From the NCBI GenBank assembly GCA_000004985.1, contig GG738908.1: 64,000 bases of DNA; one strand, 5' to 3'. Within the stretch, counting starts at the first letter, position 1. Each line of letters begins with the position of its first letter. This document shows, piece by piece, positions 8,254 to 32,047 of the stretch. The stretch is from Naegleria gruberi (lineage: Eukaryota). The translations under genes and the position numbers were made by a program. The notes beneath the pieces are model-generated. The model saw only the letters and a program-made list of their open reading frames with translations. It made no database searches and was not told where the DNA came from.

Positions 8254-8327
8254 TACAGCGAGCGGGGCTTGAACCCGCGACCTTAAGCGTGTTAGGCTTA
8301 CGATCTAACCAACTGATCTATCGCTGC
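8254..8327 (-). tRNA. tRNA-Val (anticodon AAC)
   Basis: The minus-strand cloverleaf GCAGCGA-TA-GATC-AGTTGGTTA-GATC-G-TAAGC-CTAACAC-GCTTA-AGGTC-GCGGG-TTCAAGC-CCCGC-TCGCTGT-A. The anticodon loop is CT-AAC-AC, the T-loop is TTCAAGC, the discriminator is A, and there is a G1.U72 wobble. Confidence 0.85.
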
Positions 8328-8476
8328 TTACATTTTGTGAATCATAACCTTATTCCACGTAATCTGGAAAGAGCAATTTCAGTTCTGTTATTTAAAAGTT
8401 TCTGTTTTGGCTGGAATTAAAACAGAATATTTCCATTTTAATATCTTTAAAAATAGAAAATAAAAAGCTTAAAAAA

Positions 8477-25327: not shown

Positions 25328-25535
25328 TTTTTTTGTGCGTTGACTGAAGTTCTTAATTTGATGAAGAGACCAAAGAAAGATGTCAATATTTACAATACTC
25401 GTTTTCAAATTATTAGAAGAGCTAAGGCCTGGTTTATGATTGGTTTGGTGGTAAAGATTTTATGTTGTTTAGATGTTGTAAAATGAATTAATTTCAAGTA
25501 TTGTTAAATAAAGGTATAATTCAAAATGAATGTAA

Positions 25536-25608
25536 GGGGATGTAGCTCACATGGTAGAGCGCTTCTTTAGCATGGAAGAGGTACGGGGATCGATACCCCG
25601 CATCTCCA
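25536..25608 (+). tRNA. tRNA-Ala (anticodon AGC), copy 1
   Basis: GGGGATG-TA-GCTC-ACATGGTA-GAGC-G-CTTCT-TTAGCAT-GGAAG-AGGTAC-GGGGA-TCGATAC-CCCGC-ATCTCC-A. The G3.U70 identity pair is present, and the discriminator is A73. Confidence 0.9.
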
Positions 25609-25685
25609 GCTTACTTTTTCTTTTGTTGGGAGGCTTTACAATAACAATTCCATTTTCCCTAACACGTTAATAATCGAATATGTAT

Positions 25686-27491: not shown

Positions 27492-27686
27492 TACATATCA
27501 CTCCCCAAAAATCTCAATAAAAAATTATTAAGACTTACTTGTTTAATGGCTGAACTTAATAAAAGAATATTAAATAATGAAAAGAAATTTACTTAATTCA
27601 CTCTTACTTCTCTTGGTTTGGATTATTTCATACAAATACTAGATCAATTAACAAGTAGTTAGTGCATCCACATCATTCAGAATAAT

Positions 27687-30017: not shown

Positions 30018-31364
30018 TTATTCATATTGTGGTTCAGTTTCACCTTCAATATCACCATCAACTTGATCATCGACAGTGGCATCTTGGTATTGTTGATATT
30101 CATTAACCAAATCAGTCAAGTTGGATTCAGCTTCAGTGAATTCCATTTCATCCATACCTTGATCAATGTAAGTGTGTAAGAAGGCCTTTCTCTTGTACAT
30201 TTGTTGGAATTGAGTACCAATTCTCTTGAAAACTTCTTGGATAGCAGTTGAGTTACCAATGAAAGTACCAGAAACCTTTTGACCAACTGGAGGAACATCA
30301 CAAACAGATGACTTGATATTGTTTGGAATCCATTCAACAAAGTTTTGAGAATACTTTCTTTGCATTCCCAACATTTGTTCATCAATTTCGTTAGTTGACA
30401 AGTTAAGACCTCTGAAAGTAGCACTGGCAGCCAAATATTTACCCATAGATGGATCACAAGCAGCCATCATATTCTTCTTATTGAACATTTGTGAAGTCAA
30501 TTCAGCAATTGACAAGGCAGAGTATTGTTGAGATGAAGTAGCAGCCAAAGGAGCAGAACCAACAACGAAGAAGTGCAATCTTGGGAATGGAATCAAATTG
30601 ACAGCCAACTTTCTCAAATCAGAGTTCAATTGACCTGGGAATCTCAAGCTTGAAGTAACACCAGACATGACACCAGCAACCAAATTATTCAAATCAGCAA
30701 ATGATGGTTGTGGTAACTTTAAGGTTCTAGTACAAATATCGAACAATGCTTCATTGTCCAAACAGAAAACTTCATCAGCAGATTCAATCAATTGATGCAA
30801 ACTTAAAGTAGCATTGTATGGTTCAACAACAGTTTCAGACATTTTTGGTGATGGCAAAACAGAGAAAGCAGCCAACATTCTATCAGGGAAATCTTCCTTC
30901 AATTTAGATAACAACAAAGTACCCAAACCAGAACCAGTACCACCACCCAATGAGTGAGTCAATTGGAATCCTTGCAAACATTCACAATGTTCAACTTCCT
31001 TTCTCAAAACATCCATAATTTGGTCAGCCAATTCAGCACCTTCAGTATAATGTCCCTTTGCCCAGTTGTTACCAGCTGAACCTTCAGAAGCAATGAAATT
31101 ATCTGGACGGAACAATGTACCACTCTTTGATGATTTAACAGTGTCTAAAACTGATGATTCTAAATCAACCAAGACACTTCTTGGTACGTAACGGTTTCCT
31201 TGGCTTTCAGAGAAGTAGACACCCAAGTTTTCCTTTAAAATTGGATTAGTTTCGACGAATTCACCATCGGCATTTAAACCATGTTCATTACGAATGGTTT
31301 CCCAGAAATGTTGACCAATTTGGTTACCACATTGACCAACGCTGATTGATACGATTTCTCTCAT
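30018..31364 (-). CDS. Beta-tubulin, a highly divergent paralogue
   Basis: The sequence has [17 protein letters not shown], the GGGTGSG nucleotide loop ([14 protein letters not shown]) and an acidic C-terminus. It has many substitutions relative to canonical beta-tubulins. ATG at 31364. Confidence 0.9.
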
Positions 31365-31531: not shown

Positions 31532-31871
31532 CATGAGACTTGCCTTTTTGCTGGTGTGGGCAACAAATTTCGGTTGAAGTTTGAAGATTGTATCAAACTA
31601 ATCCGTTGATATGCAGTTTTCACAACTGTAAAGAGTGATGGAGGGTTTATTAAAACGTCAAACTGTTAGTTCACAATCTTCACAATAATATTTCAAACTG
31701 ACTCATTTACAAACCCAATAGCATTGAACAAATAAAAGGATTTTGAGTTATATTGCGTGCCCAAAGCGAACAGACATGTTTCATATGTTTTCAATACGCA
31801 GCAACAGGTTTTGAGTTCCCATGAAATTCAAGTATTGTTAAATAAAGGTATAATTGCAAATAAACGTAAGG

Positions 31872-31944
31872 GGAGGTGTAGCTCACATGGTAGAGCGCTT
31901 CTTTAGCATGGAAGAGGTACGGGGATCGATACCCCGCATCTCCA
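31872..31944 (+). tRNA. tRNA-Ala (AGC)-like, copy 2, with an altered acceptor stem
   Basis: The 3' 64 nt are identical to copy 1, but the 5' end reads GGGGAGGTG instead of GGGGATG. The best fold is GGAGGTG/CATCTCC, which gives A3:U70 and G5.U68 and so loses G3.U70. About 45 nt of the 5' flank and about 12 nt of the 3' flank are shared with copy 1. Confidence 0.6.
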
Positions 31945-32047
31945 GCTTACTTTTTTAACAGCAGGCACTAATTTGACAAATATTAAACGTTTCGTAAAAG
32001 TTCAGCTTTTTTGGCCTCAACTAATTTGTTCCAACAGTTAAAATTAT

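What the first reader, a model, noticed from the sequence alone, without database searches (positions are those of the whole stretch)
31872..31944. Second tRNA-Ala(AGC) copy lacks the G3:U70 alanine identity pair
The two tRNA-Ala genes are 6.3 kb apart. They share an identical body and about 45 nt of 5' flank (ttcaagtattgttaaataaaggtataatt), so they arose by duplication including the flank. Copy 2 has a GG insertion in the 5' acceptor strand (GGGGAGGTG versus GGGGATG). This forces the fold GGAGGTG/CATCTCC with A3:U70. G3:U70 is the universal AlaRS determinant, so copy 2 may be an uncharged or mis-identified tRNA, a regulatory tRNA-like element, or a pseudogene.
Basis: partly seen in the sequence, partly recalled or inferred. 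Interest (0 to 1): 0.5.

Follow-up and report, generated by a model that had tools for sequence, protein, structure and literature searches.

The report
Recently damaged alanine tRNA gene copy
One of two neighbouring alanine-tRNA genes in this Naegleria gruberi segment carries a 2-base insertion that removes the base pair the alanine-charging enzyme needs; a near-identical strain lacks the insertion at the same site, so this is most likely an ordinary, recent knock-out of one redundant gene copy.

Summary
Two tRNA-Ala(AGC) genes lie 6,336 bp apart, at 25536-25608 and 31872-31944. Apart from the acceptor 5' strand, their 66-nt bodies and 11-nt trailers are identical. They also share an exact 29-nt upstream block. 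Copy 2 has a GG insertion at 31875-31876. ARAGORN, Rfam and an alanine-family covariance model all fold copy 2 as GGAGGUG/CAUCUCC, giving A3:U70 and G5:U68. The bulged fold that would keep G3:U70 is 4.9 kcal/mol less stable.

The window is Naegleria gruberi, which carries about 924 tRNA genes. An independent metagenome contig from a 99.4%-identical strain covers the same locus and has the canonical GGGGATG. The insertion is therefore strain-specific and not conserved. It sits at the edge of a 124-nt cluster of strain differences just upstream of the tRNA.

Published work shows that A3:U70 abolishes alanylation by eukaryotic AlaRS. The best reading is a recent lesion in one redundant gene copy: probably still transcribed, but not chargeable with alanine. 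A sequence error or a functional variant cannot be excluded without reads or tRNA-seq. This is an ordinary finding of low interest.

The parts
25536..25608 (+). tRNA-Ala(AGC) copy 1. It is canonical: acceptor stem GGGGAUG/CAUCUCC with G1:C72, G2:C71, G3:U70 and A73.
   Evidence: ARAGORN; Rfam 53.6 bits; alanine-family model R1 101.2 bits. Its acceptor stem is identical to that of 29 plant-like tRNA-Ala genes from metagenomes.
25490..25535 (+). 5' flank of copy 1. It contains the shared 29-nt block TTCAAGTATTGTTAAATAAAGGTATAATT and the leader ..ATGTAA. This is probably the Pol III upstream (TATA-like) element and leader; that role is inferred.
   Evidence: Alignments; a similar motif lies upstream of tRNA-Val.
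25609..25619 (+). 3' trailer GCTTAC plus a T5 run, a Pol III terminator-like sequence. UUAC pairs with the leader GUAA.
   Evidence: Sequence; pre-tRNA fold.
31872..31944 (+). tRNA-Ala(AGC) copy 2. It has a complete cloverleaf and the body is identical to copy 1. The acceptor stem is GGAGGUG/CAUCUCC, giving A3:U70 and G5:U68, so the alanine identity pair is missing.
   Evidence: ARAGORN; Rfam 53.0 bits; R1 97.0 bits in the shifted register; energies.
31875..31876 (+). The 2-nt GG insertion relative to copy 1 and to the orthologous gene in contig L001.
   Evidence: Offset change from 6,334 to 6,336 bp; gap at window 31875..31876 in the pairwise alignment with L001.
31826..31871 (+). 5' flank of copy 2. 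It holds the same 29-nt block, then TGCAAATAAACGTAAGG. After the register shift, the last two G (31870-31871) become leader nucleotides -2 and -1.
31945..31956 (+). 3' trailer GCTTAC plus a T6 run. CUUAC pairs with the leader GUAAG, one G:C pair more than in copy 1.
31753..31876 (.). A 124-nt patch where differences from the near-identical strain (L001) cluster. It contains 8 of 16 substitutions and 6 of 8 indel events, including the GG insertion. Divergence elsewhere is about 0.3%.
   Evidence: binomial P of about 2e-7 for the substitutions and about 3e-7 for the indels.

Best explanation
Copy 2 is a member of the large Naegleria gruberi tRNA-Ala(AGC) gene family that recently acquired a 2-bp GG insertion in its 5' acceptor strand, in this strain or haplotype.

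The internal A-box and B-box regions, the upstream block and the T-run terminator are unchanged. I therefore infer that the gene is still transcribed by Pol III. The transcript folds into a normal cloverleaf, but its stable 7-bp acceptor stem starts two nucleotides later. RNase P would then be expected to produce a tRNA beginning GGAGGUG, with A3:U70 in place of G3:U70 (inferred). In every eukaryotic cytoplasmic system tested, A3:U70 abolishes alanylation. The product should therefore be an uncharged, functionally dead tRNA. The insertion also strengthens leader-trailer pairing in the precursor, which may slow end processing (inferred).

Because the genome carries roughly 900 tRNA genes, loss of one copy should be nearly neutral. 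This is a young tRNA pseudogene or null allele, not a specialised element.
For: The register is shown by ARAGORN, Rfam and the alanine-family model R1. The shifted fold scores -27.1 kcal/mol against -22.2 kcal/mol for the G3:U70-keeping bulged fold.

The organism is N. gruberi: the adjacent beta-tubulin ORF is 100% identical to the nr entry 'beta-tubulin [Naegleria gruberi]'. N. gruberi has 924 tDNAs (PMC2888827).

The variant is not conserved. Contig L001 (ENA ERZ929261) covers the same locus with tubulin on one side and the 120-aa ORF on the other. It is 99.4% identical over 2,627 nt and carries the canonical GGGGATG.

The polarity and age follow from two observations. The canonical stem equals copy 1 and 29 related tRNA-Ala genes. 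The body of copy 2 shows 0 differences in 66 nt from copy 1, while the 46-nt flank shows 5 differences (P of about 5e-4 at the flank rate). The gene was therefore under constraint until recently.

The GG lies at the edge of a cluster of real strain differences. This fits the reported 7-10-fold elevated mutation rate at tRNA loci (PMC6130373) and argues against an isolated base-calling error.

On the consequence: converting G3:U70 to A3:U70 eliminates alanylation by insect and human AlaRS, and G1-C72, G2-C71, G3:U70 and A73 are conserved in all known eukaryotic cytoplasmic tRNA-Ala (PMC9976931). G5:U68 is not an identity element even in human mitochondria, and E. coli AlaRS cannot charge that tRNA (PMC6451123).

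The copy 2 precursor is 5 kcal/mol more stable because of GUAAG:CUUAC pairing.
Against: There are no expression, processing or charging data for Naegleria. Only one comparison haplotype exists, and it comes from a different strain, so it does not amount to re-sequencing of this genome. The rest of the N. gruberi genome could not be scanned, so I cannot say whether other GGAGGTG copies exist.

Eukaryotic AlaRS has relaxed specificity and charges G4:U69 tRNAs (PMC8583063). Some E. coli acceptor-stem mutants lacking G3:U70 still support growth (PMC9976931). Zero alanylation is therefore not certain.

Covariance scores are almost equal for the two copies, so nothing in the fold itself marks copy 2 as degenerate.
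Confidence: 0.72

Rival explanations
1. The GG is a sequencing or assembly error, or a collapsed heterozygous site, in this assembly. The real gene would be a canonical tRNA-Ala.
For: The only independent sequence of this locus (L001) lacks the GG. The insertion lies beside a G run (GGGGA). Naegleria is described as a heterozygous diploid (PMC9928731), so a consensus sequence can mix alleles.
Against: L001 comes from a different strain, not the same DNA. The GG is not a simple homopolymer-length change. It lies at the end of a 124-nt patch containing 8 substitutions and 5 other indel events (19, 6, 5, 4 and 2 nt, 36 nt in all) between the two sequences. That pattern looks like a truly divergent haplotype rather than one isolated error.
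Confidence: 0.12
2. Copy 2 is a functional non-canonical tRNA. One possibility is that Naegleria AlaRS still alanylates it, through a shifted G:U (G5:U68) or through the bulged conformer that keeps G3:U70. The other is that it acts as a deliberately uncharged or regulatory tRNA, or as a source of tRNA fragments.
For: The cloverleaf, the anticodon loop, A73, G1:C72, G2:C71, the promoter regions and the terminator are all intact. Translocated G:U pairs occur in Drosophila mitochondrial (G2:U71) and human mitochondrial (G5:U68) tRNA-Ala (PMC6451123). Eukaryotic AlaRS accepts G4:U69 (PMC8583063).
Against: The variant is absent from the orthologous locus of a 99.4%-identical strain, so it is not conserved. 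The translocated systems rely on diverged mitochondrial AlaRS enzymes, and G5:U68 is not the determinant even there. A3:U70 abolishes charging by insect and human cytoplasmic AlaRS. The bulged conformer costs 4.9 kcal/mol. In a pattern search that allowed 0-2 extra bases at this site, all 23 matches in 22 metagenome loci had none.
Confidence: 0.06
3. The GG-bearing 5' end was copied into this locus by gene conversion from another tRNA-Ala-like gene elsewhere in the genome. Copy 2 would then be one member of a multi-copy variant family.
For: Strain differences are confined to a short patch that ends inside the tRNA, which is the shape of a conversion tract. The family is large, at about 924 tDNAs in total.
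Against: An 18-nt island (TGTTTCATATGTTTTCAA, 31777-31794) inside the patch is identical in both strains and is specific to this locus. A foreign donor would not be expected to carry it. The copy 2-specific flank sequence occurs only once in the 64-kb window. No donor is known.
Confidence: 0.1

Closest known systems
Canonical eukaryotic cytoplasmic tRNA-Ala(AGC), including the plant-type GGGGAUG...GAUCGAUACCCCGCAUCUCCA sequence
   Same: Copy 1 matches it completely in the acceptor stem and T arm. Copy 2 shares the D, anticodon and T arms, A73, G1:C72 and G2:C71.
   Different: Copy 2 has A3:U70 instead of G3:U70, and G5:U68 instead of A5:U68, because of the 2-nt register shift.
Young tRNA pseudogenes and deleterious tRNA gene alleles in multi-copy eukaryotic tRNA families (mutational load from transcription-associated mutagenesis: Thornlow et al. 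2018, PMC6130373; Bell et al. 2026, PMC13010820)
   Same: One copy of a highly redundant family carries a strain-specific lesion in an otherwise intact gene. Variation is elevated in the immediate flank.
   Different: The lesion here is a 2-bp insertion that preserves a perfect cloverleaf by shifting the register. It is not a stem-breaking substitution, so standard score-based pseudogene filters would not flag it.
Translocated G:U tRNA-Ala of animal mitochondria (Drosophila G2:U71; human G3-C70 with G5-U68)
   Same: There is a G:U wobble pair at 5:68 and no G3:U70, as in human mitochondrial tRNA-Ala (PMC6451123).
   Different: Those are conserved single-copy mitochondrial genes paired with diverged mitochondrial AlaRS enzymes. 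Copy 2 is a nuclear gene whose variant state is absent in a near-identical strain. G5:U68 is not the determinant even in the human mitochondrial system.
G4:U69-containing non-alanine tRNAs mischarged by eukaryotic AlaRS (Sun et al. 2016, as reviewed in PMC8583063)
   Same: [quoted passage not shown]
   Different: The shift here is by two pairs (5:68), not one. No charging of 5:68 G:U tRNAs by a cytoplasmic AlaRS is reported in the papers read.

Membership tests
Functional cytoplasmic tRNA-Ala | Cloverleaf with a 7-bp acceptor stem, an NGC anticodon and an A73 discriminator | tested here: met
   Both copies meet this: ARAGORN and Rfam; R1 scores 101.2 and 97.0 bits.
Functional cytoplasmic tRNA-Ala | G3:U70 wobble pair, the major AlaRS identity determinant; conserved with G1-C72 and G2-C71 in all known cytoplasmic tRNA-Ala (PMC9976931) | tested here: not met
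   Copy 2 has A3:U70 in every predicted register. The G3:U70-keeping bulged fold is 4.9 kcal/mol worse. Copy 1 meets the feature.
Functional cytoplasmic tRNA-Ala | Aminoacylation with alanine by the cognate AlaRS | not testable with these tools
   This needs an in vitro charging assay or charge-sensitive tRNA-seq.
[quoted passage not shown] | A degraded sequence or structure score relative to functional paralogues | tested here: not met
   Copy 2 scores 53.0 bits against 53.6 bits for intact copy 1 with Rfam, and 97.0 against 101.2 bits with R1. All 21 pairs are standard. tRNAscan-SE itself was not available.
Strain-specific null allele / nascent pseudogene of a multi-copy tRNA family | The lesion is absent from the orthologous locus of a close relative and from paralogues | tested here: met
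   L001 (99.4% identical) and copy 1 both have GGGGATG.
Strain-specific null allele / nascent pseudogene of a multi-copy tRNA family | High gene redundancy, so that loss of one copy is tolerable | tested here: met
   924 tDNAs are reported for N. gruberi (PMC2888827). An intact identical-body copy lies 6.3 kb away.
Translocated-G:U tRNA-Ala systems (mitochondrial type) | The shifted G:U pair is evolutionarily conserved and matched by a diverged AlaRS | tested here: not met
   The variant is not conserved even between near-identical strains. The N. gruberi AlaRS was not examined.
tRNA-derived repeat / SINE | Many copies with long identical flanks or a tRNA-unrelated 3' body | tested here: not met
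   The window holds only two copies. Similarity ends about 46 nt upstream and 11 nt downstream, at the T-run. The genome-wide copy number was not tested.

The most novel reading that the evidence does not exclude
The A3:U70/G5:U68 tRNA is a real, expressed and stable species in N. gruberi. One version of this reading is that Naegleria cytoplasmic AlaRS charges it through a G:U pair shifted by two positions, or through a bulged acceptor helix. The other version is that it is kept as an uncharged tRNA with a signalling or fragment-generating role. Charging would be the first nuclear-encoded cytoplasmic tRNA-Ala working without G3:U70.
Probability: 0.05. Interest if true: 0.6.

Novelty: new member of a known kind. 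Interest (0 to 1): 0.15.

Why it matters
It matters little as it stands. It is a clear example of an identity-element knock-out that covariance-model scores do not flag: the copies differ by 0.6 bits with Rfam and 4.2 bits with an alanine-family model. This is a useful caution for tRNA gene counts in protist genomes. It also fits the picture of tRNA loci as mutation hot spots that carry segregating null alleles. It would matter only if the variant tRNA proved to be charged or conserved, because that would challenge the universality of G3:U70 in cytoplasmic alanine identity.

Tried and rejected
- Orthologous tubulin loci in N. fowleri, N. lovaniensis and an unnamed Naegleria contig (L002-L005) have no tRNA within 10 kb. 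Synteny is not conserved, so there is no outgroup for this locus.
- Exact-protein look-ups for the neighbours gave no further N. gruberi-like contigs. The 497-aa and 631-aa ORFs returned nothing. The 120-aa ORF and P0009 returned only L001 again. A homology search with the 120-aa ORF found only L001's copy.
- The metagenome scan with the 41-nt N. gruberi tRNA-Ala body found nothing.
It returned 22 loci, all plant-like tRNA-Ala genes with no insertion. This is a useful control but these are not Naegleria sequences.
- The project accession PRJEB11402 is not mentioned in the paper library.
- I considered a tRNA-derived SINE and rejected it because the shared flanks are short and there are only two copies.
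- I considered that L001 might be an assembly chimera of two tRNA-Ala loci. I rejected this because it matches locus-2-specific sequence on both sides within 65 nt of the tRNA, and its -23..-1 flank differs from both window copies.
- I could not scan the rest of the N. gruberi genome or examine its AlaRS with the available collections.

Full report
**What is in the sequence**

ARAGORN finds four tRNA genes in the window: Val(AAC), Lys(CTT) and two Ala(AGC) genes at 25536-25608 and 31872-31944, both on the + strand. Rfam's tRNA model confirms all four. The two alanine genes score 53.6 and 53.0 bits. The anticodons are of the A34 type, each gene is followed by a T-run, and the window is gene-dense with 33% GC. 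Together these indicate a eukaryotic nuclear genome.

The ORF at 30018-31364 (minus strand) is a beta-tubulin. It is 100% identical to the nr entry 'beta-tubulin [Naegleria gruberi]', and 88-89% identical to N. fowleri and N. lovaniensis proteins. The window is therefore Naegleria gruberi. That genome is reported to hold 924 tDNAs (PMC2888827).

**Checking the observation**

The two alanine genes are 6,336 bp apart.
- Copy 1 reads GGGGATG...CATCTCCA, with G1:C72, G2:C71, G3:U70 and A73.
- Copy 2 reads GGAGGTG...CATCTCCA, with A3:U70 and G5:U68.
- Outside the acceptor 5' strand, the 66-nt tRNA body and the 11-nt trailer GCTTACTTTTT are identical.
- A 29-nt upstream block is exact, and the 46-nt flank differs at 5 positions.

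The repeat offset changes from 6,334 bp in the flank to 6,336 bp in the body. The only 2-nt insertion that converts GGGGATG into GGGGAGGTG is GG after the A, at window positions 31875-31876.

**Which fold is used**

ARAGORN, Rfam and an alanine-family covariance model all place copy 2 in the shifted register, with a contiguous 7-bp stem. I built that model (R1) from copy 1 plus seven distinct related tRNA-Ala sequences. It scores copy 1 at 101.2 bits and copy 2 at 97.0 bits.

With the two extra G included, the shifted cloverleaf has -27.1 kcal/mol. The cloverleaf that keeps G3:U70 by bulging two nucleotides has -22.2 kcal/mol, which is 4.9 kcal/mol worse. No other bulge placement does better.

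It is therefore only half met: the scores are nearly equal, but G3:U70 is lost.

In the precursor, the leader GUAA pairs with UUAC in the trailer of copy 1. The insertion extends this to GUAAG:CUUAC in copy 2 and makes the precursor about 5 kcal/mol more stable. That this could hinder end processing is my inference.

**Evidence from another strain**

An exact-protein look-up with the tubulin ORF returned a 2,630-bp ENA metagenome contig, L001 (ERZ929261). It covers the tubulin gene, the tRNA and the 120-aa ORF on the other side, so it is the same locus. It matches the window at 2,611 of 2,627 aligned positions, or 99.4%. Its tRNA is the canonical GGGGATG form without the GG.

The differences between the two sequences are strongly clustered. 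Eight of the 16 substitutions and 6 of the 8 indel events, including the GG, fall in 124 nt (31753-31876) immediately upstream of and just inside the tRNA. The rest of the alignment differs at about 0.3%. The binomial P is about 2e-7 for the substitutions and about 3e-7 for the indels.

L001's flank shares AAAATGAATTAATTTCAAG with copy 1, so L001 looks closer to the ancestral unit and the window's copy 2 looks derived. L001 is unlikely to be an assembly chimera. It matches locus-specific sequence on both sides within 65 nt of the tRNA, and its proximal flank differs from both window copies.

The orthologous tubulin loci of N. fowleri, N. lovaniensis and another Naegleria contig carry no tRNA within 10 kb. 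No outgroup for this locus is available.

**Other controls**

A metagenome scan used the pattern GGGGA-N{0,2}-TGTAGCTCACATGGTAGAGCGC, which allows 0-2 extra bases at the insertion site. It returned 23 matches in 22 loci, and every match had zero inserted bases. All 29 tRNA-Ala sequences extracted from these loci (27 called by ARAGORN and two degenerate remnants) begin with the canonical GGGGATG acceptor strand. Their sequences look plant-like; that origin is my own reading of the sequences and was not tested.

The body of copy 2 has no difference from copy 1 over 66 nt, whereas the flank has 5 differences in 46 nt (P of about 5e-4 at the flank rate). Copy 2 was therefore held under constraint, or homogenised with other copies, until recently. 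The insertion is young.

**What the lesion should do**

The identity literature is clear for cytoplasmic systems.
- Changing G3:U70 to A3-U70 eliminates alanylation by insect and human AlaRS.
- G3:U70 is also required in Arabidopsis (PMC9976931).

Copy 2 by coincidence carries a G5:U68 wobble pair, as human mitochondrial tRNA-Ala does. In that system G5:U68 is not an identity element, the mitochondrial AlaRS has a diverged recognition peptide, and E. coli AlaRS cannot charge the tRNA (PMC6451123).

Eukaryotic AlaRS does mischarge tRNAs carrying G4:U69 (PMC8583063). Some residual activity on odd stems therefore cannot be ruled out.

**Most likely mechanism**

The steps shown by the data are these: there is a 2-bp insertion; it shifts the register of the acceptor stem; the identity pair is lost; and the variant is absent from a near-identical strain.

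The inferred steps are these. The gene is still transcribed, because the internal promoter regions, upstream block and terminator are unchanged. RNase P produces a 5' end at 31872. The product is not alanylated and is functionally dead. With about 900 tRNA genes in the genome and an intact identical-body copy 6.3 kb away, the loss should be close to neutral.

The clustering of strain differences in the 5' flank fits the reported 7-10-fold elevated mutation rate at active tRNA loci and their hypervariable flanks (PMC6130373). It also fits the segregating functional variants found in nematode tRNA genes (PMC13010820). However, the local excess here is larger than that rate alone predicts. A single complex repair event is an equally plausible source; that suggestion is my inference.

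**Rival explanations**

- An assembly or consensus error (about 0.12) is not excluded, because L001 is a different strain and Naegleria is a heterozygous diploid (PMC9928731). The GG is, however, part of a cluster of real differences.
- Gene conversion from an unseen GG-bearing paralogue (about 0.10) fits the tract-like shape. It is weakened by the locus-specific 18-nt island inside the patch and by the absence of any second copy of the flank in the window.
- A functional non-canonical or regulatory tRNA (about 0.06) is disfavoured by the lack of conservation.

**The shared flank**

The upstream sequence of the tRNA-Val gene is AATAAGGTTATGATTCACAAAATGTAA. It resembles the alanine flank AATAAAGGTATAATTCAAAATGAATGTAA, and the tRNA-Lys flank also ends in ATGTA. 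The exact 29-nt block and the identical trailer do still indicate common ancestry or homogenisation of the two alanine units.

**Verdict**

The biology is ordinary: a strain-specific, probably inactivating insertion in one copy of a very large tRNA gene family. It is a new instance of a known kind, and interest is low. The decisive tests are read-level confirmation, a genome-wide tRNA-Ala census, and charge-sensitive tRNA-seq.

Noticed in passing
window 8328-8357 (minus strand, upstream of tRNA-Val 8254-8327), 25507-25535, 31843-31871, and upstream of tRNA-Lys (27492-27500): The upstream flanks of unrelated tRNA genes share a motif. It reads AATAAGGTTATGATTCACAAAATGTAA at Val and AATAAAGGTATAATTCAAAATGAATGTAA at Ala, and Lys ends in ATGTA. 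This looks like a general Naegleria Pol III upstream and leader element, with (A)TGTAA directly before the mature 5' end.
   Followed up: partly
window 31753-31876 compared with L001: Differences between two 99.4%-identical strains are concentrated in 124 nt just 5' of the tRNA: 8 substitutions and 38 nt of indels. Divergence elsewhere is about 0.3%. The excess is larger than the 7-10-fold rise reported for tRNA flanks, and its cause (a complex repair event, conversion, or transcription-associated mutagenesis) is unresolved.
   Followed up: partly
window 25532-25535 with 25612-25615; 31866-31870 with 31947-31951: The leader GUAA pairs with the trailer UUAC in both alanine precursors. In copy 2 the insertion lengthens this pairing to GUAAG:CUUAC and stabilises the precursor by about 5 kcal/mol.
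   Followed up: yes
window 30018-31364 (-); L002, L004: The adjacent gene is a divergent N. gruberi beta-tubulin, only 62-67% identical to typical eukaryotic beta-tubulins. Its neighbours differ from those in N. fowleri and N. lovaniensis. The DUF7932 gene is upstream and on the same strand here, but downstream and on the opposite strand there. This suggests a rearrangement next to the tRNA genes.
   Followed up: partly
window 32048-32410 and 32415-34310 (-): Two adjacent ORFs on the same strand but in different frames, of 120 aa and 631 aa; the larger one has a DUF7932 domain. The N. fowleri DUF7932 protein is 1,158 aa, so these may be exons of a single gene split by an intron or a frameshift.
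   Followed up: no
L021 and L023 (metagenome loci): Plant-like tRNA-Ala remnants keep an intact 5' half (GGGGATGTAGCTCACATGGTAGAGCGC) but have a degenerate or missing 3' half, and ARAGORN does not call them. They are examples of true decayed tRNA-Ala pseudogenes. In the same batch of loci, ARAGORN also over-extends many intact genes to 75 nt.
   Followed up: no
window 34556-34754: A run of 9-nt-periodic repeats (TCCTCCATT/TCCACC-like), which would encode a Gly-rich tract on the minus strand.
   Followed up: no
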